Shown here: one piece after another, positions 43,199 to 53,543 of the stretch
How positions within the stretch are numbered: the first letter of the stretch is position 1
How the letters are laid out: each line of letters opens with the position of its first letter
Origin: Candidatus Zixiibacteriota bacterium
GTDB lineage: Bacteria; Zixibacteria; MSB-5A5; WJJR01; JAJRUJ01
DNA: 64,000 bases
Reading direction: 5' to 3'
Assembly (NCBI GenBank): GCA_020051695.1
Contig: JAGVQM010000019.1
Coordinates: forward strand, 15,221-79,220
Made by a program: the position numbers and the translations under genes
Notes under the pieces: generated by a model
Told to the model about the DNA's origin: nothing
The model's input: only the letters and a program-made list of their open reading frames with translations
Database searches by the model: none

Positions 43199-46105
43199 CT
43201 ATAATTCTCCGTTGGCGTCGGTTTTAATGATGCTGAAATCAGCAGATGTGGCACCATGAGCGGTCATCCACCCGCTGATGATCAGACCACCATCGGGAGC
43301 TTCAATGACACCGGTGGCCCCATCACTTTCGGAATCACCGATGGTCCGTTCCCACAGGATCGTCGCAGTCGGACTTATTTTTGCCACGTACATATCGCTT
43401 TTGCCTGCGCCAAACGATTTAGTAGAACCAACAACAACAAAATTGCCATCCGAAACCGCAATGATCTTTGAAATCGCATCATCATTGCCGCCACCCAGAT
43501 AGAGTTCGTTGCGTTTATTGCCCAACGAATCAATCCATATTACATAACCATCTTTCATTCCGAAATACGATGCCTGGGTCCATCCGGCAATTACGTAATC
43601 ATCGATTCCATATTGAATCAGCGATTCGCCACTGTCATTGTAATAGTAGGCCCCCTGACCGTAATCTCTGCCCCACAAGTTTTTACCCTGCGCATCAGTC
43701 TTGGTAACAAACAAACCGACGCCAGCTATCATCAACCCGGTATCATGACACTGAATCACCGCATTGCCGCCATAGCCCGAATATTGCCTTTTCCAGGTTT
43801 CCTGTCCGATGGCATCAGTTTTGAACAAGAATGCTGCGGGGTTGCCTCCGACGGAGCCAGACAGAACATACCCACCGTCTGATGTTGCTGCGACAGATCG
43901 GCTGCCAGCCACCACCGTGGCACCGTCAACATAATGAAGGCGTTCCCAACCAATTGAACCGAAATCATCGATTCTGGCGATTACAACTCTGGTATCCCAT
44001 ACTAATCCCCCGCGTTCCCCCGATTCTCCGGCCGCGATATATCCACCATCCCATGCCGGGATTATTGAAAAGAGGTAATCGTCATAATCCGGTCCATGGC
44101 CAAAAACCCGTTCCCATGCCACTGTACCATCGGCGTTGACTTTAGTCGCGTAAAAATCAGAAGTCGACTGCGGTGAATAACTTGGACTCCAATAGGCAAC
44201 GCCATTTGGAATTGTGCCGACCGCCACCGCGCCACCCTCAGGGGTTAAAGTAATTGAGCGTGCTGCTTTCCTGCCAGTGCCTCCGATAATAGTATACCAA
44301 GTATTGGATAACGTTGTTGTTTTCGCCTCTGCCACATTGGAAAGTCCAGACCAATTTCCCGAAGTATCCGCCGTCTTCAGCGCTAAAAAATAATTCAATC
44401 CTGGAGTTAATCCGATTATCTCAAATGATTCCGCTTCGTGTACAGGTTTCGCAGGCCGTAATCCTTCTGCCGGAATCCCCTCACTCCATGTATCATCTGT
44501 AATCGGTGACGTTGCATAGCGCATGTCGTATTGAGCTGCCTGCCCCAAAAGACTATCGTCACCCGACGCGTTCCAAATCAAGGTCACCGAATTATGGCTG
44601 ACGGTTTGCGGGTACAGGTTCGTTATTGCTGCCGGAGGGATTGTGTCTGTTCCAGGTCGGGCGATTCCCAGCACATCATTCGAGAGAGGGGACCAATTCT
44701 GGACCTCATCCGCAGTTTTTATGGCAAAATGATAGGCGGTGTTTTTCGTCAAACCCGTTACCATGAGTGTTTCCGGGGAACCACTTGATAGAGGCAACGT
44801 AACACCGGGATAGGAATATAGTGCTCTGAAATTAGTTTCATTAATTACTGAAGTCGAGTATCGAAGATCGTATAAACTAGCCGTTCCCACATCGCCATCA
44901 TCTCCCGGCGCCGTCCAACTCAAGGTCAGCGATGTCAATGATGAATCGATAATCCGCAAATCAATGATTGCCCCCGGCGGCGTCCGGTCGATGCTCGCTG
45001 TCCGCGCCGCCAGTACGTTGGACATCGTCGACCAGTTCAGCATTTCGTCGCCGGTTTTCAGGGCAATATAATATTCAGTTTCACTCTGCAAACCGGAAAT
45101 CCTGATTGTGTCACCAGTTCCGGCGAACGATGGTTTCGGCAGATTTGGCGCGATTTGTGCATCGGGAAAATTCACTTCGTTCATCAGCCGGGGAGAATAA
45201 CGAATATCATAAAACGACGCTCGTCCCAGCGTGTCGTCATCACCCGGCGCCGTCCAGATCAACAAAAGAGAAGTGCTCGTCGTATCCAGAACTCTCAGAT
45301 CAGCAATCGGTCCCGGAGGCGTGGTATCGGCCGCCGTGGCGCCGATGATGACATTAGACATTGCCGACCAGTTCGGGACTTCATCGGCGGTTTTAATTGC
45401 AAAACAATAATTTTCGTTCGTGTCCAGGTCATAGAAAGTATACTGCTGCGTGCTGTCCGCCAGCCAGGGTGTCGGTGGATCGGCAACCTGTTTCGCATGA
45501 ATAAAATATTCGTCGGTAATCAGCGTGGTCGGTGAATAACGGATATCATATGCTGCGGCAGTCCCCGCCGAGCCGTCATCGCCGGGCACGGTCCAGCTTA
45601 ATTCAATGAAGGTATATCCGGCGTCAGTCACCCGCAAATCGGCAATTGCTGCCGGGGGGACAGTATCCAGGACAGCTTCTGTCGTGCCGGTGGCGATATT
45701 GGAGATCGCCGACCAGTTGGGCACTTCATCAGCCGCCTTGATCCCAAAATAATATGTTGTGTCCGGCAACAGCCCGAGGACCAGCATCGTCTCCGGCGTC
45801 CCCGCTTCCTGCGGGATCGGCAGACTGAACGGCTGCAGCGCCGAATCCCAGGTGGAATCGGTCAGGACGATGGAATGAAATCGGATATCATATTGGGCCG
45901 CCGTGCCGTTGGCGTCATCATCCCCGGGCGCGGTCCAGGTCAGCACCAGCGAACTGTCAGTGGGATTGATCGCCGCAAGATCGGTAATTTGTGCCGGGGG
46001 TGTGCTGTCGGGAATACCGGTGCCCTTGTCGGTTTTTTCCACGCCGCAGGACAAGACAAGCACGACGATCAAACCGGCGCCAATCAACGACTTTCGCAGT
46101 CGCAT
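43199..46105 (-). CDS. Large lipoprotein: five FN3-like repeats followed by beta-propeller-like repeats
   Basis: Start at ATG 46105 (MRLRKSLIGAGLIVVLVLSCG, lipobox LVLS|C). Five repeats of about 113 aa each contain W(T/N)APGDD..G.A..YD(I/L/M)RY and ..KTADEV.NWS. The C-terminal half has recurring DGGY(I/V)..G and W(E/K)R motifs. Confidence 0.8.
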   Translation of the reverse strand: MRLRKSLIGAGLIVVLVLSCGVEKTDKGTGIPDSTPPAQITDLAAINPTDSSLVLTWTAPGDDDANGTAAQYDIRFHSIVLTDSTWDSALQPFSLPIPQEAGTPETMLVLGLLPDTTYYFGIKAADEVPNWSAISNIATGTTEAVLDTVPPAAIADLRVTDAGYTFIELSWTVPGDDGSAGTAAAYDIRYSPTTLITDEYFIHAKQVADPPTPWLADSTQQYTFYDLDTNENYCFAIKTADEVPNWSAMSNVIIGATAADTTPPGPIADLRVLDTTSTSLLLIWTAPGDDDTLGRASFYDIRYSPRLMNEVNFPDAQIAPNLPKPSFAGTGDTIRISGLQSETEYYIALKTGDEMLNWSTMSNVLAARTASIDRTPPGAIIDLRIIDSSLTSLTLSWTAPGDDGDVGTASLYDLRYSTSVINETNFRALYSYPGVTLPLSSGSPETLMVTGLTKNTAYHFAIKTADEVQNWSPLSNDVLGIARPGTDTIPPAAITNLYPQTVSHNSVTLIWNASGDDSLLGQAAQYDMRYATSPITDDTWSEGIPAEGLRPAKPVHEAESFEIIGLTPGLNYFLALKTADTSGNWSGLSNVAEAKTTTLSNTWYTIIGGTGRKAARSITLTPEGGAVAVGTIPNGVAYWSPSYSPQSTSDFYATKVNADGTVAWERVFGHGPDYDDYLFSIIPAWDGGYIAAGESGERGGLVWDTRVVIARIDDFGSIGWERLHYVDGATVVAGSRSVAATSDGGYVLSGSVGGNPAAFLFKTDAIGQETWKRQYSGYGGNAVIQCHDTGLMIAGVGLFVTKTDAQGKNLWGRDYGQGAYYYNDSGESLIQYGIDDYVIAGWTQASYFGMKDGYVIWIDSLGNKRNELYLGGGNDDAISKIIAVSDGNFVVVGSTKSFGAGKSDMYVAKISPTATILWERTIGDSESDGATGVIEAPDGGLIISGWMTAHGATSADFSIIKTDANGEL
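44321..46000 (-). repeat. Five tandem, diverged FN3-like coding repeats (~340 nt period) within the lipoprotein gene
   Basis: Repeat units begin at ORF residues ~47, 160, 274, 387 and 500 (each TPP/VPP/IPP...I.DL). They are diverged at the DNA level. Confidence 0.75.
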
Positions 46106-46202
46106 CCCCACCTCCCGCCGAGCGCAAGTGTCCGGCATTACTACGATTCACTAGTAATAATACTACATGAATCGGGGGTGTCAACAAAAATCCAGGCGCC
46201 GA

Positions 46203-48649
46203 TTACTCGATTTCCAGCCGCCAGGGCAGCACATACCAAATACGTTCGTCATTCAACGCCGATATTTCAGCAGCCACATCGTCCGCCCGATAACCGAACA
46301 GCCAACCCGGCAACCGGATCGGCGGGGCGGCAAACCACGGGGCACGGGGCAGGAGTCTGACTTCGTAGTTATTGCGGTCGATCCCCGCCAGTTGCGCCGC
46401 CGAGGCGATGGCCCGCTGCAGCCCACCGTATTCATCGATTAAGCCGAGGTCCTTGGCCGCTTTGCCGGTCCAGACCCGGCCCTGCGCCGCGTGCTCAGTC
46501 TCTTCGTGCTCCAGCCGGCGGCCCTTCGCCACCACCTCGATGAAATTATCATATAACAGATGGACCTGTTGGCGCAGTATCTCTCGTTCCTGCTCGGAAA
46601 ACGGCCTGCTCATGCTGTACATGTCGGCGTGCGCACCACGGGTGGAGGTTTCTTTGTCGATGCCGATTTTTTCGTACAACCCGGCCAGGTTGATTTTGCC
46701 GTAATACACGCCGATTGAACCGGTGATTGTCGCGGGCGAGGCAAAGACCGAATCAGCAGCGCAGCCGATATAGTAGCCGCCCGAGGCCGCGACATCGGCC
46801 ATCGAAACGACCAGCGGCTTTTTGTCCCGGGCCAACTCCAGTTCGCGTTTGATCAGGTCGGCGGAGATGCCCGACCCGCCGGGCGAATTGATGCGCAGGA
46901 CAATGGCCTTGACATCCCGGTCGTTGCGCGCCTCACGAAGGGCTGCAACCATGGTTTGTGCCCCCAGCACCTCGCCGGCCAACAGGTCATCACGGTCCGT
47001 ACCCGGCAGCATCGTGCCCTCGGCAACGATCACGGCGACTTTGGGGATCGGTCCCCAGGCCGTGCGGTGGTATGACCGGTCGGCCAGCGCAGCAAAATCG
47101 ACGCGCGCGGCCCCCCGGGAAATTTTATCCTCGATGATTTGGCCCAGCTCATCTTCGTAGGCAATCTGGTCGACCAGCCCGGCGCGCTCTGCGTCCACAC
47201 TCACCAGCGGACCGCCGTCGATCAATTCCCGCACACGGTCCGGGGACAAGTCGCGGTCGGCGGCAACGGTCGTGACCAATTCCATAAAGATGTCGTCCAG
47301 CAGCGCTTCCCGGGCTTCACGGGCCGGTTCGGACAACGAGGTGCGGGAATATGTCTCGACCGCGCTTTTATATTCGCCCACCCGTTCGTATTCGAACTCG
47401 ATGCCGAGCTTGTCCATCAAATCCGTATAGAACGTTGCCTCTGCGCGCAGACCATCGAGATTGACCGTCGACACCGGTGGGCAAACCAGCCAATCGGCCG
47501 CACACGCCAGGTAATACTCGCCGTCGGACGGCGACGAGGAAAAATACACGACGACCGGTTTGCCCTGGGACTGAATCTGCCGAATTGCCGTGCGCAGTTC
47601 ATCCAGCCGCGCCCAGCCAACGTGCAGGTCATCCAAACGCAACAGCAGGCCGCGAACGGCCGGGTCGGCCGCGACTTTATCTAAAACGGTGAGGATTTCG
47701 TAATGCGTCCGAGGCCGGGAAACAAAAAAAAACGGGGAGATTGTTTCTCGGCCGGCGCCCCGCTCAGCGAAATATCGGCCACTTCCCGGCGCAGGTGCAC
47801 TACCGAGCGGCGGCGCTCCTTGAACGATCCGGCAGCCAGCGTACCACGGAAAAACTTGCCGTCCCGGTCAAAGGCATTGTATGACGAGAGCATTAATTCG
47901 GCCAGGTTGAGTTGCACGCCCAGGCCGAATTTGTGGCTGCTCACGGATCCGCCATACAACGGTCGGCCTTTGTCGCCGTAATCGCCGCTGATGATCAGCC
48001 CGTCCACCAATTCCAGCCCGGCCGTAAGATGATAGGCGCCGTCGGCCAGCCGCTGCCCCGTGGACTGGTAATAATCGGCTCCGAGTACCAGCCGTTCATC
48101 AAACATGTTTACCGCCGCGGAATACGCATACACCCCGGCGGTACGCTCCCCGGCGTACGGCATATGGTTGGCGTTTTCCAAGCGTACGCCCAGCGAAAGG
48201 TGCTCACCGGGCCGCACCATCAGCGCGTAGGTCCAGAAATGCGCCTTGTCCTCGAGTACGTCATCGGAGGTGACCCAGCGATACGAGGCCCCCAGATAGA
48301 TCCGGTCCTTGATTTCGCCGCCCCAGCCCAGCGTGTGGTGCCGGGCATCGGGTTCGCCGCCCGAACCCAGCCATTCGACCCCGAAAGCAAATCCGCTGCG
48401 CCCGACATAGATCAGGTCGTTGCCGGCAAGGTCGGAATCCGAATACGTATGTGCCACATACGTCCGCCAGTCGTTATCGGCGGCCAGTGTGCCGGGGTTG
48501 TACCGGAGCGCCCATAGTCCGTCGGCGGCAGCTACACTTTGATAGGGCAGCAGCACCCTCCGGTCGGGATAGACCATCTCGGCCGAGACAGATACCACCG
48601 CAGTCACAAGAATTCCGATAAGTACTGCACAGGCGACAGCTTGTTTCAT
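46203..48649 (-). pseudogene. sppA: Signal peptide peptidase SppA (two-domain 67K type) with N-terminal beta-rich extension, frame broken at the A9/T9 run 47724-47732
   Basis: Downstream ORF (46203-47642) carries EYKSAVE (Lys domain) and VAASGGYYIGCAAD (Ser domain). Its frame stays open upstream, reading ...FFFVSRPRTHYEILTVLDKVAADPAVRGLLLRLDDL. The upstream ORF (47681-48649) ends ...VVHLRREVADISLSGAPAEKQSPRFFLF, which is SppA-like. One extra T in the run would fuse the two frames. Confidence 0.7.
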
Positions 48650-48669: not shown

Positions 48670-49779
48670 TCAGATGGAATCGCCCTCGTCTTTGGTCACC
48701 CGAGGATATGGTCCTCGCAGCATGATATCGCCGCGGTCGTCGATGGCGATGTCCAAAAGACCGCCTCCTTCACCGGCGACACCTTCCAGAGAGTACCGGT
48801 CGATCTGCGTAATCTTGAGCGGCAGTCCTCTGGTGCGGATCGATCCGCCGCCGGTCCTGCTGATCGATGATTGCACCACCGCGGAAAAACCTTCATGGGT
48901 CACTACGGTGACATCGGAGTTATCGGTACGAATCATCACATTGGCCCCCTGCCACCGGGCAATATCGAGATCCACCGGGGAATTGCGCGAGGTAATCCGT
49001 GAATTCCCGCCGGTCACTGTCCAATCGGAAATATTCACCGGCGCATCGTCGACCCGGATATCGACCGCTCCCTCAATTTTTGTAAAATCCAGTTGCCCTC
49101 GTTCCGACCGAACCTGCAATGGTTCGGAAAATCCGGTGAGATCTTTTAACGTCGTAACACCAAAATGGTTATTGATCTGTATCCGGCCCTGTGCGCCGGC
49201 CAGCGACAAGGCGCCGTACTCGGTCCGCAGGTCCGCCGCTTCGGTCACGCCCGTTACCTGGATGCCGCCGTACGTCCCGTGAATTTGTACTTCGCGGAGC
49301 GGCCCGGTAAGATCAAAGTCAAAAAATTCCGAATCACCACGGAAAATCCGTCCCGGCGGCAGCAATATCTCGAAAGCGACCGTCACGCCGATCTGACTGC
49401 CCTCCCACTCTGCGTCCCGGGGCGTGGTGATCCCGATGCGCAATACTTCCCGAACGACCTCAGTCTGCACCGTGATCGACTCCAGGATTCGCGCAGCGCG
49501 TTCGCCGCTGGAGAGATTGTAAAGATTTTTTTTGATTTCGATTTTGATGTCGTCGACATCGACATCGGTCCGCAGCCGTATCTCGCCGCGGATATTCTCG
49601 GGTGGTTTGAACTCGAGCATGGAAATATCGGCGGCGGGAATGCGGCGGATTTCGCTTGCGGCAAGGCCTTGCCGGCTTTCGGCGGTGTTGTCTTCGGCCT
49701 GCGCCAGGCCCGAAAGCATCACGACCAGACCGGCCAGCCGCAGTAGTCGAACAAGCTTAATCTCAAAGCGTTTTGTCAT
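48670..49779 (-). CDS. Secreted beta-strand-repeat protein (DUF4097 / putative adhesin-like)
   Basis: Signal peptide LAGLVVMLSGLAQA. Short repetitive strand-turn units (G.I.V...G.V.I) run through the C-terminal two thirds. Confidence 0.45.
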   Translation of the reverse strand: MTKRFEIKLVRLLRLAGLVVMLSGLAQAEDNTAESRQGLAASEIRRIPAADISMLEFKPPENIRGEIRLRTDVDVDDIKIEIKKNLYNLSSGERAARILESITVQTEVVREVLRIGITTPRDAEWEGSQIGVTVAFEILLPPGRIFRGDSEFFDFDLTGPLREVQIHGTYGGIQVTGVTEAADLRTEYGALSLAGAQGRIQINNHFGVTTLKDLTGFSEPLQVRSERGQLDFTKIEGAVDIRVDDAPVNISDWTVTGGNSRITSRNSPVDLDIARWQGANVMIRTDNSDVTVVTHEGFSAVVQSSISRTGGGSIRTRGLPLKITQIDRYSLEGVAGEGGGLLDIAIDDRGDIMLRGPYPRVTKDEGDSI

Positions 49780-49851: not shown

Positions 49852-50742
49852 TCATTGCCTGCTATTCCTCCGTTCGGCCGCTTTCCCCGCCGTTTGCCGT
49901 ATGGTTGAGCGCCGTGTCGGACTTGTGGACGTCGCCTGCTGCTCTCCGAATAGCTGATACAACAAAATCCCGGCGGCTACGGCACTGTTGAGCGATTCGA
50001 CCGACGGCGCGGTCCGGATGTGCAATGATTGTGCGCCACACTCCCGCCAGACGTCTGACAGACCCTCGGTTTCCCCGCCGATGACCAGTGCGACCCGGGC
50101 TTGTTTCGCTACCGGGCCCGGCGCCGTGCCGGAATGCGCATCGGCCGTATAAATCATATACCGCTTTGCGCGCAGCAACCCGGCCAGTTCGGCGGTTTCG
50201 ACAACCTGGACAATCGGCAACTGGAAGAGCCCCCCCATGGAAGACCGGACCACCTTTGGGTTATACATGTCCACCGTGCCCCGGCTGAGGCAGACACCCT
50301 CCATGCCGAATGCCGCCGCCGAGCGGAGAATTGCCCCCAGGTTGCCGGGATCGCGAACATGGTCCACGACCAGCAAGCGTCGGCCGGAAAGCAGCGCGGG
50401 GGATGGGTCCTGCGGCCGTTGCCGGGCCACGGCAAGAATGCCGGGAGGTTCAACGGTATCGGTCATTTCCTGTATATCATGCGGGGCGGCCACATATATT
50501 GCGATTTCCGGGCGATGGTATTTGTCGAAAATTAAACTGAACCGCTGCCGTGTTTCCGGGTCATCCCGCAAAATAACCGCCTCCAGCACCCACTCGGCGG
50601 CCAATGCCGCATCAAGCAGCCGAAAACCCTCGAGGAGAAACAATCCGGATTTGGCGCGGTTGTGGGCGCTGCGCAGCCGGGCCGCCTGTCGCCTGATTGT
50701 CTTGACCAGCGGCCGCCATCGATCCTGATCGATGAACTTCAT
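49852..50742 (-). CDS. TrmH/SpoU family RNA 2'-O-methyltransferase
   Basis: LVVDHVRDPGNLGAILRSAAAFG, ALVIGGETEGLS and ESLNSAVAAGILLYQL SPOUT motifs, plus about 30 aa of basic C-terminal tail. Confidence 0.85.
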   Translation of the reverse strand: MKFIDQDRWRPLVKTIRRQAARLRSAHNRAKSGLFLLEGFRLLDAALAAEWVLEAVILRDDPETRQRFSLIFDKYHRPEIAIYVAAPHDIQEMTDTVEPPGILAVARQRPQDPSPALLSGRRLLVVDHVRDPGNLGAILRSAAAFGMEGVCLSRGTVDMYNPKVVRSSMGGLFQLPIVQVVETAELAGLLRAKRYMIYTADAHSGTAPGPVAKQARVALVIGGETEGLSDVWRECGAQSLHIRTAPSVESLNSAVAAGILLYQLFGEQQATSTSPTRRSTIRQTAGKAAERRNSRQ

Positions 50743-50834
50743 GCCTTAGCGTACGCCCCGACGGGCCATCGGGCAAGCATTTTCCTGTTGCGACGAAGAT
50801 ACGGGACAAATTTTTCCATTTTTTTGGTCGACGG

Positions 50835-53543
50835 ATGTTATGTTATACTGCAATGGTCAACATGTGCCAACGAATTAAATATCTCGGGCAGGCGGCTGTC
50901 GGCCGCCGGTTGCTGCTGATTATAGTTGTCTTGACCTGGCCGCCCGGAGTATCGGTCGCCGGCTGGCCCGGCGACAGCAGCATGGTTTTTGAAGCGCCGG
51001 GCATTTATGAGCGGCTGTATCGCAGCCATATCCAGTCGACAGACGGGGCGCCGACCCTGTCTTTGACCTTATCCGGAGGAGGCGCGAGAGGCCTGGCGCA
51101 AATCGGCGTGCTGCGTGCCATCGAAGAACGAGGGCTGGTCGTCACCGGCATTGCCGGGACGAGTCTCGGCGCCATCATCGGCGGGTTGTATGCAGCCGGT
51201 TATTCCGCGGAGGAGTTGGATTCACTCGTCCGCGTGGCCGATTGGAATTCTTTTTTTTCCGATACACCGCCGCGCACGCATTTGTTGCTGCCTCAGAAAG
51301 ATGCCCGCTCTCGCGCCTTTCTGACGCTCCATTTTCGCGGGCTTAAACCCAATTTGCCGACGGCCATGACCGGCGGCCAGCCGCTGCTGCAACTACTGAC
51401 GGAATTATGCCATGCGGCCGAATATCATGCGCGATCGGACTTCGATTCGCTGGCCATCCCCTTTCGCAGTGTCGCGACCGACCTGGTTTCCGGCCGGGCC
51501 ATAATCCTGCGGCACGGTGACCTGGCGCTGAGTTTGCGGGCCGCCTCGGCGTTCCCACTGGCCCTCTCTCCGGTGCATCTGGATTCGATGATGCTGGTCG
51601 ACGGTGGTTTGATCAGCCCCATTCCGGTATCATCCGCCCGCGAGTTCCCGGCCGACCTGGCGCTTGCGGTCAATACAACCTCAGAATTGGAATCGGCGGT
51701 CGCGCTGGAAAACATTTACAACGTGGCCAATCAATCGACCACCATCATGACCCGGCCGCAGTCCCAACAGGCGCTAACGCTGGCCGACGTGGTCATCGCG
51801 CCGCTGTTGCACGAGTACAACAACCTTGATTTTGACCGGGCCGATACGATCATTGCGCTGGGATACAGTGCAGCTTGCCGGGTTTTGGATTCACTACTGG
51901 CGTACTATCAACCACCGGCACAGGACTCGGCCGCCGGTGAACGCGATATCACCGTCGATTCTGTCGCCGTCTCCGGCTTGGATGAGACGGTCCTCGAACA
52001 CCGCGAAATTATTGCCTATCTGCGGTCGCCGTCCGGCGACAAATTATCGCTTGAACGTCTGGAACATAAACTGCATCAGGTAATCGACAACGGCCAGGTG
52101 CGCCGCATAACACTGCAGGTTTCCGCCGATCCCCGGCCGACCATTGGCGAGATAACCATCTCCCCCTATCCCCGGCTGCGCGAGGTGGTCTTCGACGGCA
52201 ACAGCGTGTTTCCCAATGCGGTGTTGGCCGCCGGCTTTTCCCCGCTGATCGGGCGTCTGGCCGACACACGACGGCTGGCCGAGGCACTTCGCAGTTGCCT
52301 GGAATTATATGAGGCGGAGGCCTACTCTCTGGTCGAAATCCGGGCTGCCGAACTCGACGATTCCACCGGGCGCCTGAGAGTGGTCATCGATGAAGGCCGG
52401 CTTTCCGGGCTGGAGGTTGCCGGCAATACCTCGGTTAAAGACTGGGTGATTACCCGCCATTTCCCGCTGCAGAAAGGCCGGTTGTTTAATTTTCGGGAAT
52501 TTTTTCACGGATTGGAAGATTTGCACGCCACCGGGTTATTCAACAATGTTGGGGGCCGGATCGCCCGGGGGGCCGACGGGCCCATCGTCAAACTCAACGT
52601 TCGCGAAAAAGACTACGATATTGTGCGCTTCGGATTACGGCACGATTTGGAATACCAGACCGACGTGTTCGCCGAGGTTGTCAACAGCAACCTTCTGGGG
52701 CTGGGGAATGAAATTTACATACACGCGGGGTATTGCCCGCGCCGGGAACGATACGCCGCCGGTGTGCACGCCGACCGGATGTTCCGCACCTACCTTAACG
52801 CCGCTGTCCAGGCCTATCGGGAGATCCATGAACGGTACCGCTACGTGGACTACCATCGCCGCGGCTTTTTCGAGACGGCCCGGACAGGGTTGATGCTGAC
52901 GGTGGGACATAACATCAAACGTTTTGCGGCATTCTCGGCCAATGTGCGGCTGGAGGATATTGTCCTCACCGAAGAGCCGCCGCTGCCGAATTCGCGCGCG
53001 CGTTTGCGGGCGATGGTATTCTCGGCGCAGTATGACGACCTTGACCGGTATCCTTTTTCCCGCCATGGCCGGAAGTTTGATTTGTCGGTGGAATTTGCCG
53101 ATGATTTTGTCGGCGGCAATGTGGTGTATCGGAAGGCTTGCGCCCAGTTGGAAAACTGGTTGTCGCCCATCGGCCGGTTCACGATCGGCCAGCGGATAAC
53201 TCTGGGGGTGGCCGACCGCGTTGTGCCGGATTACGAGCGTTTTGCGTTGGGGGGCCGCCAGTCGATGATGGGGTTGCACGACGATGAATTCCTCGGCGAT
53301 AAGCTCATCCTCGGCAACCTCGATTGCCGGGTGCGGTTCTTTTCCCGCAGTTATATGAATTTCCGTCTTGATGTAGGTGGGGTCTGGGAGGACGGGGACG
53401 ATGTCCGGCTGATTGACGATTTGCGAGTTGGCACCGGGGCCGGACCTTCATTTGATACTCCTTTGGGACCCTTGGAGTTGATGTGGGGGATTGCCGAGGA
53501 CGATCTCACGAATTTCTATTTTAACTGGGGTTATGACTTCTAA
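50835..53543 (+). CDS. Patatin-like phospholipase fused to a POTRA + Omp85-type beta-barrel (PlpD-like, type Vd secretion architecture)
   Basis: SGGGARG oxyanion motif, GTSLGA (GxSxG), and DGGLISPIP (catalytic Asp). The long C-terminal beta-rich region ends ...NFYFNWGYDF with a terminal Phe typical of outer-membrane barrels. The exact start is uncertain. Confidence 0.75.
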   Translation: MLCYTAMVNMCQRIKYLGQAAVGRRLLLIIVVLTWPPGVSVAGWPGDSSMVFEAPGIYERLYRSHIQSTDGAPTLSLTLSGGGARGLAQIGVLRAIEERGLVVTGIAGTSLGAIIGGLYAAGYSAEELDSLVRVADWNSFFSDTPPRTHLLLPQKDARSRAFLTLHFRGLKPNLPTAMTGGQPLLQLLTELCHAAEYHARSDFDSLAIPFRSVATDLVSGRAIILRHGDLALSLRAASAFPLALSPVHLDSMMLVDGGLISPIPVSSAREFPADLALAVNTTSELESAVALENIYNVANQSTTIMTRPQSQQALTLADVVIAPLLHEYNNLDFDRADTIIALGYSAACRVLDSLLAYYQPPAQDSAAGERDITVDSVAVSGLDETVLEHREIIAYLRSPSGDKLSLERLEHKLHQVIDNGQVRRITLQVSADPRPTIGEITISPYPRLREVVFDGNSVFPNAVLAAGFSPLIGRLADTRRLAEALRSCLELYEAEAYSLVEIRAAELDDSTGRLRVVIDEGRLSGLEVAGNTSVKDWVITRHFPLQKGRLFNFREFFHGLEDLHATGLFNNVGGRIARGADGPIVKLNVREKDYDIVRFGLRHDLEYQTDVFAEVVNSNLLGLGNEIYIHAGYCPRRERYAAGVHADRMFRTYLNAAVQAYREIHERYRYVDYHRRGFFETARTGLMLTVGHNIKRFAAFSANVRLEDIVLTEEPPLPNSRARLRAMVFSAQYDDLDRYPFSRHGRKFDLSVEFADDFVGGNVVYRKACAQLENWLSPIGRFTIGQRITLGVADRVVPDYERFALGGRQSMMGLHDDEFLGDKLILGNLDCRVRFFSRSYMNFRLDVGGVWEDGDDVRLIDDLRVGTGAGPSFDTPLGPLELMWGIAEDDLTNFYFNWGYDF

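What the first reader, a model, noticed from the sequence alone, without database searches (positions are those of the whole stretch)
47681..47760. SppA reading frame interrupted at a 9-nt homopolymer
The SppA frame (46203-47642, tracked from a TTG) remains open upstream, reading ...ISPFFFVSRPRTHYEILTVLDKVAADPAVRGLLLRLDDL, which is clearly SppA-like. The upstream ORF, in another frame, ends ...VVHLRREVADISLSGAPAEKQSPRFFLFPGLGRITKSSPF*, and its first part is also SppA-like (compare the E. coli LLLDISG region). The two frames meet in the run of nine A residues at 47724-47732 (T9 in the coding sense). Ten T residues would give one continuous protein (...KQSPRFFFVSRPRTHYEIL...). Three explanations are possible: a homopolymer sequencing or assembly error, a recent inactivating deletion, or expression rescued by transcriptional slippage or -1 ribosomal frameshifting. 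Both rescue mechanisms are documented for A/T runs of about this length in bacteria.
Basis: partly seen in the sequence, partly recalled or inferred. Interest (0 to 1): 0.5.

Follow-up and report, generated by a model that had tools for sequence, protein, structure and literature searches.

The report
Conserved T9 frameshift site in barrel-SppA gene
The break in this protease gene is not an error or a dead gene: a run of exactly nine T's that forces a reading-frame shift has been kept in at least twelve divergent relatives, so the cell most likely makes two proteins from one gene by letting its RNA polymerase (or ribosome) slip on the run.

Summary
A T9 run (coding sense; window 47724-47732) joins a 322-aa ORF to a 479-aa SppA ORF in the -1 frame, and one extra T gives an 815-aa protein.

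It is neither a sequencing error nor a recent inactivation:
- Twelve distinct orthologous lineages (54-77% aa identity, independent metagenomes and assemblers) carry exactly T9 at the same site with the same split.
- Synonymous sites are saturated, and both halves are under strong purifying selection (dN/dS about 0.1-0.2).
- Conservation switches from the 0 frame to the -1 frame at the run.
- No conserved start codon exists for a separate SppA.
- One nested relative is in frame with a broken run (CGC TTT TTT TTC).

The run keeps length 9 although its codon phase differs between subclades, and no conserved stimulatory RNA structure or SD-like element was found. This favours programmed transcriptional slippage (+1 U), as in Shigella mxiE or Citrobacter tssM1. 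A -1 ribosomal shift on U_UUU_UUU is not excluded.

The upstream part is mostly not SppA. It is a signal peptide plus a 14-strand FadL/PorV-like outer-membrane barrel. The predicted products are therefore the barrel alone and barrel-SppA. This is a new case of a known mechanism.

The parts
47724..47732 (-). T9 slippery run (A9 on + strand). This is the recoding site: +1 U in the mRNA, or a -1 ribosome slip on CG U_UUU_UUU UUG, joins the two frames.
   Evidence: Exactly T9 at the homologous site in 12 lineages. Junction Phe codons are TTT in 35/36 cases, against 19/84 at other invariant Phe columns.
47681..48649 (-). 0-frame ORF, 322 aa: signal peptide + 14-strand outer-membrane barrel + linker + SppA strand beta1 + 14-residue non-conserved tail and stop. 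This is the predicted product of unslipped expression.
   Evidence: (orthologous ORFs 312-324 aa)
48578..48649 (-). Predicted signal peptide (MKQAVACAVLIGILVTAVVSVSA|EM). It is the only export signal available to the SppA part.
   Evidence: Read directly from the sequence. Modelled as an N-terminal helix 2-19. The cleavage site is inferred, not computed.
47810..48577 (-). FadL/PorV/BamG-like 14-strand outer-membrane beta-barrel domain (about residues 25-280) with short N-terminal helices and an invariant N51-P52.
47759..47785 (-). EVADISLSG: first beta-strand of the SppA fold, still encoded in the 0 frame upstream of the run.
   Evidence: Aligned with in-frame relatives. Confident strand 293-301 in the AF2 model of in-frame P0001, followed by the FFF loop and helix 320-332.
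47681..47723 (-). 0-frame tail after the run (L FPGLGRITKSSPF*) and its TAG stop. Not conserved as protein. The same DNA is conserved in the -1 frame.
   Evidence: downstream identity is 0.31 in the 0 frame and 0.58 in the -1 frame..
46203..47732 (-). -1-frame coding region from the run to the stop: two-domain S49 peptidase (SppA 67K type). Catalytic Lys codon at 47367-47369 (YKSAVE) and Ser codon at 46782-46784 (AASGGY).
   Evidence: E. coli SppA 3BF0/3BEZ, E 2.3e-60, both motifs aligned; dN/dS 0.09-0.22.
47681..47867 (-). Overlap of the two open frames in the window, the only place a shift can join them. In relative L012 this interval shrinks to 24 nt before and 16 nt after the run.
48670..49779 (-). 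Upstream 369-aa gene of unknown function, 20 nt from the barrel gene start, syntenic in all relatives (context, probable operon partner).

Best explanation
This is a selected, anciently fixed recoding site, not damage. The gene encodes a secreted protein made of a FadL/PorV-like outer-membrane barrel followed by a two-domain SppA (S49) serine protease. In most of the family this is one in-frame ORF. In one clade (nearest named relatives: Candidatus Zixiibacteriota) the loop between SppA strand beta1 and helix alpha1 carries a run of nine T's, and the SppA part sits in the -1 frame.

The most likely mechanism is transcriptional slippage. While RNA polymerase transcribes the run, the whole 8-9 bp RNA:DNA hybrid is rU:dA, so the nascent RNA can slip back one position. 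A fraction of transcripts therefore carry U10.
- Faithful U9 transcripts give the 322-aa barrel-only protein, which stops 14 codons after the run.
- U10 transcripts give the 815-aa barrel-SppA fusion (...PR FFF VSRPRTHYEIL...).
The run thus fixes a ratio between an outer-membrane barrel and the same barrel carrying a periplasmic protease.

Shown by the comparative data: conservation of T9, the frame requirement, purifying selection on both halves, the lack of an independent start, and the fold assignments. Inferred: that slippage happens at the RNA polymerase rather than the ribosome, the ratio of products, and that the short product has a role of its own.
For: 1. T9 is present at the homologous site in 12 distinct lineages: window, L001, L003/L048, L004, L005/L049/L052/L053, L006/L013, L007, L008, L009-11/L047, L012, L051, L054. 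They share 54-77% aa identity and come from independent samples and assemblers. Each has a 312-324 aa ORF followed by a -1-frame SppA ORF.
2. Pairwise pS is 0.56-0.76 (saturated). dN/dS is 0.09-0.17 for the barrel half and 0.09-0.22 for the SppA half. There are no other frame breaks.
3. Protein conservation switches frame at the run. Upstream it is 0.51 in the 0 frame against 0.26 in the -1 frame. Downstream it is 0.58 in the -1 frame against 0.31 in the 0 frame.
4. The shift must occur within 24 nt before and 16 nt after the run in L012.
5. Codon choice: the three junction Phe codons are TTT in 35/36 cases, against 19/84 at other invariant Phe columns.
6. The run sits in two codon phases (xxT TTT TTT TTx in 7 lineages, TTT TTT TTT in 5) yet is always 9 long. 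In the first group the ninth T is a synonymous site that a heptamer-based ribosomal shift does not need, and it is T in 7/7.
7. Nine is the length at which selection against slippery A/T runs becomes evident in a large proportion of bacterial genomes, and is the run length in T. thermophilus dnaX (PMC1088944).
8. No conserved downstream RNA structure: alifold gives -5.35 kcal/mol with covariation -0.14, and the window's downstream 116 nt fold worse than shuffles, z = +1.78. Upstream hairpins are no better than shuffles. No conserved SD-like motif is visible in the alignment.
9. The natural in-frame relative L002/P0001 reads CGC TTT TTT TTC, giving R-FFF-A of the same length as the predicted shifted product. 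It is nested inside the T9 clade (96-97% bootstrap), and in-frame outgroups lie outside.
10. T9 to T10 is an easy mutation at a homopolymer, yet no T10 appears in any of the 17 related contigs or in the window.
11. In-frame barrel-SppA fusions of 730-870 aa dominate the wider family.
Against: There is no RNA or protein data, so slippage itself is unobserved. U_UUU_UUU is a canonical -1 heptamer present in the 0 frame in every lineage, so ribosomal frameshifting gives the same protein and cannot be excluded. In the TTT TTT TTT group all nine T's can be explained by the heptamer plus coding. The lineages are related, so counts of 'independent' conservation are overstated, although synonymous saturation limits this. 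A function for the barrel-only product is inferred only from the persistence of the shift. The search for in-frame close relatives or transcripts with a junction-spanning peptide was insensitive.
Confidence: 0.62

Rival explanations
1. The same conserved recoding site works at the ribosome. This would be programmed -1 ribosomal frameshifting on the heptamer U_UUU_UUU, with both tRNA-Phe re-pairing one base back, possibly together with some transcriptional slippage.
For: A perfect X_XXY_YYZ heptamer lies in the 0 frame in all 12 lineages, in both codon phases. The predicted product is identical to that of +1 U slippage and matches in-frame L002. All comparative evidence for recoding applies equally.
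Against: No conserved downstream hairpin or pseudoknot and no SD-like stimulator were found. U_UUU_UUU is reported as much less shift-prone than A_AAA_AAG in E. coli (PMC5009743). The ninth T in the xxT TTT TTT TTx group is not needed for the heptamer yet is kept in 7/7 lineages, and run length stays 9 when the phase moves.
Confidence: 0.25
2. Phase-variable contingency locus. Replication slippage switches the run between T9 (SppA off) and T10 (on) within populations, and assemblies happen to show the off state.
For: Homopolymers of 9 are mutation hot spots (general knowledge; discussed in PMC1088944). The site is in an envelope protein gene.
Against: The window and all 17 related contigs of the T9 lineages show T9. 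No T10 or T8 allele was seen, and the only in-frame relative uses a broken, non-slippery run. No full-length protein closely related (>66% identity) to any split lineage was found. Strong purifying selection on the SppA half implies it is expressed in the majority state.
Confidence: 0.05
3. Two separate genes: a barrel protein and an SppA translated from its own internal start.
For: Gene callers annotate two ORFs in every lineage.
Against: The first possible start in the -1 frame is 74-248 nt after the run, at non-homologous positions, and only TTG or GTG. The -1 frame is conserved as protein right from the run. Such an SppA would lack strand beta1, helix alpha1 in some lineages, and any signal peptide or membrane anchor. 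Outgroups and the wider family are single in-frame ORFs.
Confidence: 0.03
4. Pseudogene: a recent inactivating 1-nt deletion in SppA.
For: A frame break at a homopolymer is the commonest kind of inactivating lesion.
Against: The same lesion is shared by 12 lineages with saturated synonymous divergence. dN/dS is 0.09-0.22 in the SppA half, there is no second lesion, and the catalytic Ser and Lys are invariant.
Confidence: 0.02
5. Homopolymer sequencing or assembly error: the true sequence is T10.
For: Homopolymer length errors occur on some platforms.
Against: The T9 call is identical in JGI, ENA (MEGAHIT k141), Logan and NCBI MAG contigs from many samples. A8/T8 runs inside other genes of the window are in frame. 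The in-frame lineage is assembled as T8 flanked by C in three assemblies. A universally conserved T10 would itself need explaining.
Confidence: 0.01

Closest known systems
Shigella flexneri mxiE (programmed transcriptional slippage at a U/T run)
   Same: Two overlapping ORFs are joined when a non-templated nucleotide is inserted at a run of U's in part of the mRNAs. Slippage is needed to make the longer, functional product (PMC1088944 citing Penno 2005; PMC5009743).
   Different: mxiE is a plasmid-borne AraC-type regulator in one genus. Here the gene is a chromosomal envelope protease, and the site is conserved across a deep clade with saturated synonymous divergence. The mxiE run length of 9 is from my memory, not from the text read.
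Citrobacter rodentium / Yersinia pseudotuberculosis tssM (A11 run, two length variants)
   Same: A homopolymer just before a premature stop near a domain boundary of an envelope protein. Slippage yields a truncated and a full-length form. No SD-like or structural stimulators are nearby, and that absence was used there, as here, to argue for the transcriptional route. Both forms and their ratio are required (PMC4256274).
   Different: That run is A11, not T9. It was shown experimentally by ESI-MS of cDNA. It has a narrow taxonomic spread and concerns a T6SS component, not a protease.
dnaX: Thermus thermophilus A9 transcriptional slippage / E. coli A_AAA_AAG -1 ribosomal frameshifting
   Same: One gene gives two products of different length in a fixed ratio. 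A 9-nt run is used in Thermus, and the alternative ribosomal route gives the same outcome in E. coli (PMC1088944).
   Different: In dnaX the recoded product is the shorter one, whereas here recoding gives the longer one. E. coli dnaX has SD and hairpin stimulators, and none were found here.
Conserved homopolymer frameshifts in insect endosymbionts (Blochmannia, Buchnera)
   Same: Frameshifts inside poly(A)/poly(T) tracts of chromosomal genes are kept by selection over long times and read through by slippage. This rests on my knowledge of Wernegreen et al. 2010, cited in PMC3711429. That paper was not in the library.
   Different: Those are AT-rich, drift-dominated reduced genomes with many such tracts. 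Here the genome is about 57% GC and free-living, and this is the only run of 9 or more in the 64-kb window and in 71.8 kb of related loci.
E. coli SppA (protease IV, PDB 3BF0/3BEZ; TIGR00705 SppA_67K)
   Same: Two tandem S49 domains. The Ser (AASGGY) and Lys (YKSAVE) motifs are aligned. E = 2.3e-60, and the score is above the TIGR00705 cut-off.
   Different: There is no N-terminal inner-membrane helix. Instead there is a cleavable signal peptide and a 14-strand outer-membrane barrel, so the protease would be tethered to the outer membrane. The gene also needs a frameshift.
FadL / TodX / PorV / BamG 14-strand outer-membrane barrels
   Different: Sequence identity is 8-13%, and no Pfam or NCBIfam family is hit. 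The barrel is fused to a protease, and no transport or secretion role has been tested.

Membership tests
Programmed transcriptional slippage site (mxiE / tssM / Thermus dnaX type) | Homopolymeric A or T run of about 9 or more at the junction of two overlapping frames | tested here: met
   T9 at 47724-47732 lies inside the 187-nt frame overlap.
Programmed transcriptional slippage site (mxiE / tssM / Thermus dnaX type) | Run and frame disruption conserved among orthologs while both parts stay under purifying selection | tested here: met
   12 lineages carry T9. pS is 0.56-0.76 and dN/dS 0.09-0.22 in both halves.
Programmed transcriptional slippage site (mxiE / tssM / Thermus dnaX type) | Run length, not codon phase, is what is conserved | tested here: met
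   There are two codon phases (7 and 5 lineages), always 9 T's. The ninth T is synonymous and kept in 7/7.
Programmed transcriptional slippage site (mxiE / tssM / Thermus dnaX type) | mRNA population heterogeneous in run length while the DNA is homogeneous | not testable with these tools
   No reads or transcriptomes are available.
Programmed transcriptional slippage site (mxiE / tssM / Thermus dnaX type) | Full-length trans-frame protein detected | not testable with these tools
   No proteomics data. The peptide search for in-frame close relatives was uninformative.
-1 programmed ribosomal frameshift (dnaX / IS3 type) | X_XXY_YYZ slippery heptamer in the 0 frame | tested here: met
   U_UUU_UUU is in phase in all lineages.
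-1 programmed ribosomal frameshift (dnaX / IS3 type) | Conserved downstream stimulatory hairpin or pseudoknot 5-9 nt after the heptamer | tested here: not met
   The alifold consensus gives -5.35 kcal/mol with covariation -0.14. The window's downstream region has z = +1.78 against shuffles.
-1 programmed ribosomal frameshift (dnaX / IS3 type) | Upstream internal Shine-Dalgarno-like stimulator | tested here: not met
   No conserved GGAGG-like motif is seen in the 40 nt upstream across 10 aligned lineages. This was judged by eye, not by a scoring method.
SppA 67K (S49 peptidase, TIGR00705) | Whole-protein score above the curated cut-off, with two S49 domains | tested here: met
   The repaired protein scores 335.9 bits against a cut-off of 311.45. 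PF01343 matches in 2 stretches, E 1.2e-80.
SppA 67K (S49 peptidase, TIGR00705) | Catalytic Ser in domain 2 and Lys in domain 1 | tested here: met
   AASGGY and YKSAVE align with E. coli SppA and are invariant in 9 relatives. Their identity with E. coli S409/K209 is from my knowledge of the 3BF0 paper.
SppA 67K (S49 peptidase, TIGR00705) | N-terminal inner-membrane anchor helix directly preceding the protease | tested here: not met
   The profile match starts at model position 78. The N-terminus is a signal peptide plus a 14-strand barrel instead.
FadL/PorV-like 14-strand outer-membrane barrel | 14 antiparallel strands with fold similarity to solved members | tested here: met
FadL/PorV-like 14-strand outer-membrane barrel | Sequence-family membership (Pfam Toluene_X/FadL or PorV models) | tested here: not met
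   No Pfam or NCBIfam hit at E <= 0.01-0.1.
FadL/PorV-like 14-strand outer-membrane barrel | N-terminal hatch with a conserved NPA motif | tested here: inconclusive
   N51-P52 are invariant in 25 sequences, and short helices 44-57 precede the barrel. That NPA is diagnostic of FadL hatches is recalled from memory, and the plug position was not inspected.
Phase-variable contingency locus | Both ON and OFF run lengths seen among closely related genomes or populations | tested here: not met
   The window and 17 related contigs all have T9. There is no T10 or T8 allele of the run. Read-level minority variants are not testable.

The most novel reading that the evidence does not exclude
A deeply conserved, obligatory transcriptional-slippage site in a core envelope-protease gene of an uncultivated FCB-group phylum sets the stoichiometry between a free FadL/PorV/BamG-like outer-membrane barrel and the same barrel carrying a periplasmic SppA protease. 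Both forms would be needed, for example in a mixed oligomer around the SppA ring, or in a barrel that hands cleaved signal or sorting peptides to a tethered peptidase at the outer membrane. This would be the first recoding event described for SppA and a previously undescribed outer-membrane-anchored form of signal peptide peptidase.
Probability: 0.3. Interest if true: 0.75.

Novelty: new member of a known kind. Interest (0 to 1): 0.62.

Why it matters
Chromosomal, non-mobile bacterial genes with programmed frameshifting or slippage that is conserved over deep divergence are few; prfB, dnaX, copA and some secretion genes are the known examples. This case adds a clean one. It offers 12 lineages, a natural in-frame revertant as a control, and a run that changed codon phase but not length, which bears on the polymerase-versus-ribosome question.

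It also has practical consequences. Annotation pipelines currently split this gene into a 'hypothetical protein' and a truncated 'protease-4' in every member. The protein family (an outer-membrane barrel fused to SppA, 150 or more 50%-identity clusters) is annotated simply as SppA although its topology must differ from the E. coli paradigm.

Tried and rejected
1. Downstream frameshift-stimulating RNA structure. The alifold run on 10 lineages and a single-sequence fold found nothing beyond chance.
2. Terminator-like or slippage-stimulating hairpin just upstream of the run. Some lineages close a GC stem right before the T's, but energies equal those of shuffles (z between -1.5 and +1.8) and the stems are not homologous. 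The terminator scan does not call the site.
3. Known RNA families. Rfam finds only two tRNAs in the window.
4. Independent SppA start codon. None is conserved.
5. General assembly quality. All other 8-nt runs that lie inside long ORFs of the window are in frame.
6. Search for in-frame close relatives or transcript-derived ORFs with a 177-aa junction-spanning peptide. It gave only one partial upstream ORF and did not even recover P0001, so it is uninformative.
7. The metagenome scan returned only 4 loci, all already-known lineages.
8. Literature. SppA, peptidase and S49 are absent from Antonov 2013 (GeneTack clusters), SppA and 'signal peptidase' from the held part of Atkins 2016, and no paper pairs 'signal peptide peptidase' with slippage or programmed frameshift. 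None of the 12 listed papers (of 40 holding 'SppA' and 'frameshift') appeared relevant by title or abstract. No paper on barrel-SppA fusions was found. The library is open-access only, so absence is not proof.
9. The profile search with A3 was meant to cover the barrel only, but the SppA columns were kept (821 positions). It therefore shows that fusions are common but does not tell whether stand-alone barrels exist.
Full report
**1. The observation**

On the - strand the sequence reads ...CAA TCT CCC CGT TTT TTT TTG TTT CCC..., with nine T's at window 47732-47724. In this frame a 322-aa ORF (48649-47681) stops 14 codons after the run. In the -1 frame the sequence is open from 135 nt before the run to the stop at 46203, and encodes a two-domain S49 peptidase. 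Adding one T gives an 815-aa protein. That protein passes the curated cut-off of TIGR00705 SppA_67K (335.9 vs 311.45 bits) and carries two PF01343 stretches. It aligns with E. coli SppA (3BF0/3BEZ, E 2.3e-60), including the AASGGY serine and YKSAVE lysine motifs.

A single A9 in 64 kb is itself unremarkable: shuffles give a mean of 1.09. What matters is where it sits. Other A8/T8 runs that lie inside long ORFs of the window do not break frames.

**2. Relatives**

A search with the repaired protein gave an unexpected pattern. One 819-aa in-frame relative appeared (P0001, 66% identity), along with many 448-481-aa proteins of 59-76% identity that are truncated at or near the same point as the window's ORF. 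A search with the upstream ORF gave 16 further proteins. All full-length ones are 312-324 aa and two are shorter fragments.

I fetched the DNA for these and scanned genome and metagenome collections. Every split relative has exactly T9 at the homologous position. There are 12 distinct lineages:
- the window
- L001
- L003/L048
- L004
- L005/L049/L052/L053
- L006/L013
- L007
- L008
- L009-11/L047
- L012
- L051
- L054

They come from JGI, ENA (MEGAHIT), Logan and NCBI MAG assemblies. Named members are a Candidatus Zixiibacteriota MAG (L013) and a MAG labelled uncultured Ignavibacteria (L012). Gene order is conserved: patatin-Omp85, then SpoU methylase, a 365-370-aa unknown, this gene, and in several loci an fn3 protein. 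In 71.8 kb of these loci the only homopolymer of 9 or more is this run.

**3. Not an error and not a pseudogene**

- Pairwise synonymous differences are saturated (pS 0.56-0.76). Non-synonymous differences remain low in both halves: dN/dS is 0.09-0.17 in the barrel part and 0.09-0.22 in the SppA part.
- There are many invariant columns on both sides, including P305, F307-309, R312, T315 and Y317 around the junction.
- Protein conservation switches frame at the run. Over 14 codons upstream it is 0.51 in the 0 frame and 0.26 in the -1 frame. Over 14 codons downstream it is 0.58 in the -1 frame and 0.31 in the 0 frame.
- The interval in which the frames can be joined is as small as 24 nt before and 16 nt after the run, in L012.
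- The first possible start codon of the -1 frame lies 74-248 nt after the run, at different places, and is only TTG or GTG. An SppA made from it would lack conserved residues and any export signal. An independent gene is therefore not tenable.

**4. The natural control**

L002/L050 (P0001, also seen as P0091 and P0092 in other assemblies) reads CGC TTT TTT TTC GCT. This is the 'T10' version with a C at each end. It is in frame, non-slippery, and encodes R-FFF-A. That is the same length and residues as predicted for the shifted product of its neighbours.

In an NJ tree the T9 lineages plus L002 form a clade with 100% bootstrap support. In-frame proteins P0008 and P0011 (Zixibacteria) lie outside it. 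L012 and L006 branch first, and L002 is nested inside (96-97%, sister to L051 at 78%). The simplest history is one gain of the shifted arrangement from an in-frame ancestor, long retention, and one reversion. The wider family is overwhelmingly in frame: the best 150 representatives at 50% identity are almost all 730-870 aa and match the whole profile in one stretch.

**5. Polymerase or ribosome?**

Either route would give the same protein. A perfect U_UUU_UUU heptamer is in phase in every lineage, so -1 ribosomal frameshifting is possible. Four things favour transcriptional slippage.

(a) The run occupies two codon phases: cgT TTT TTT TTn in 7 lineages and TTT TTT TTT in 5. Its length is always 9.

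(b) In the first group the ninth T is a synonymous third position of the last Phe codon of the shifted product and is not part of the heptamer, yet it is T in 7/7. At other invariant Phe columns TTT is used in only 19/84 cases, against 35/36 at the junction; the single TTC belongs to in-frame L002.

(c) Nine is the length at which selection against A/T runs becomes evident in a large proportion of bacterial genomes, and it is the run length used by T. thermophilus dnaX. mxiE needs an extra U at a U run to fuse its two ORFs (PMC1088944).

(d) No stimulator was found. The consensus fold of 10 lineages has -5.35 kcal/mol with no covariation. The downstream region folds worse than shuffles. Upstream stems are no better than shuffles and are not homologous. 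No SD-like motif is conserved. In E. coli, U_UUU_UUU is far less shifty than A_AAA_AAG (PMC5009743). The same reasoning was used, and then verified by mass spectrometry, for tssM1 (PMC4256274).

I put about 0.6 on slippage by RNA polymerase as the main route and 0.25 on the ribosome. Both could contribute.

**6. What the two products are**

The model of in-frame P0001 (pLDDT 84.2, pTM 0.83) shows the following order:
- the barrel up to residue 280
- a confident strand at 293-301 (REVADISLSG, which I assign as the first strand of the SppA fold)
- a loop containing FFF
- helix 320-332 and the two S49 domains

The run therefore lies in the first loop of the protease, about 30 residues after the barrel. 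Unslipped expression gives a complete outer-membrane barrel with a short periplasmic tail. Slipped expression gives the barrel with a periplasmic SppA attached.

T9 has persisted although T9 to T10 is an easy mutation. This suggests that constitutive fusion is disadvantageous in these organisms, so either the short form or a low dose of the long form matters. This last step is inference.

**7. Comparison and novelty**

The mechanism is of a known kind (mxiE, tssM, dnaX, endosymbiont poly-A tracts). I found no report of recoding in SppA. The term is absent from the GeneTack survey and from the held part of the 2016 recoding review, and full-text searches gave nothing relevant. I also found no description of barrel-SppA fusions. 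These searches cover an open-access library only.

I therefore classify this as a new member of a known kind. Its interest is above average because of the depth of conservation, the built-in evolutionary controls, and the unusual protein it regulates.

Noticed in passing
window 47810-48577 (-); models m823d8c755b07 and m5ce961c4f2ee: The protein is an unannotated architecture: a FadL/PorV/BamG-like 14-strand outer-membrane barrel fused to a two-domain SppA. In-frame versions form a large family (best 150 representatives at 50% identity, mostly 730-870 aa) in Zixibacteria, WOR-3, Bradymonadia, Myxococcota and others. Sources name it simply 'signal peptide peptidase SppA'. An SppA tethered to the outer membrane cannot work like E. 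coli SppA in the inner membrane. A link to PorV/T9SS or BAM-type machinery is pure speculation.
   Followed up: partly
L002 718-1672 (+): In the one relative whose barrel-SppA gene is in frame, the neighbouring SpoU-type rRNA methylase gene is split into two ORFs in different frames (718-1149 and 1172-1672), next to a C7 run (ttccccccgg). In other relatives it is one ORF of about 282-289 aa. This could be an error, a pseudogene or another shift.
   Followed up: no
window 46157-46184 (-): A near-consensus sigma-70-type promoter (TTGACA, 16 nt, TATTAT; 11/12) lies between the SppA stop (46203) and the start of the 979-aa fn3-repeat gene (46138). That gene therefore probably has its own promoter.
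   Followed up: no
window 43199-46138 (-): The downstream 979-aa protein has a signal or anchor sequence, at least four fn3 repeats, and a C-terminal half rich in G-D/W repeats. The equivalent position holds an fn3 protein in several relatives (L001, L009, L010).
   Followed up: partly
window 48670-49779 (-) and 50736-53543 (+): The conserved neighbourhood comprises a 369-aa protein with no family match (a faint DUF4097 hit in relatives) ending 20 nt before the barrel gene, a SpoU methylase, and, in relatives, a divergently transcribed patatin-POTRA-Omp85 protein. The 935-aa ORF at 50736-53543 probably corresponds to that protein but was not checked.
   Followed up: no
window 49526-49533 and 51251-51258: 8-nt A/T runs lie inside two intact long ORFs (the 369-aa gene and the 935-aa ORF) without breaking the frame. 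They were useful as an internal control of assembly quality but were not examined in relatives.
   Followed up: partly
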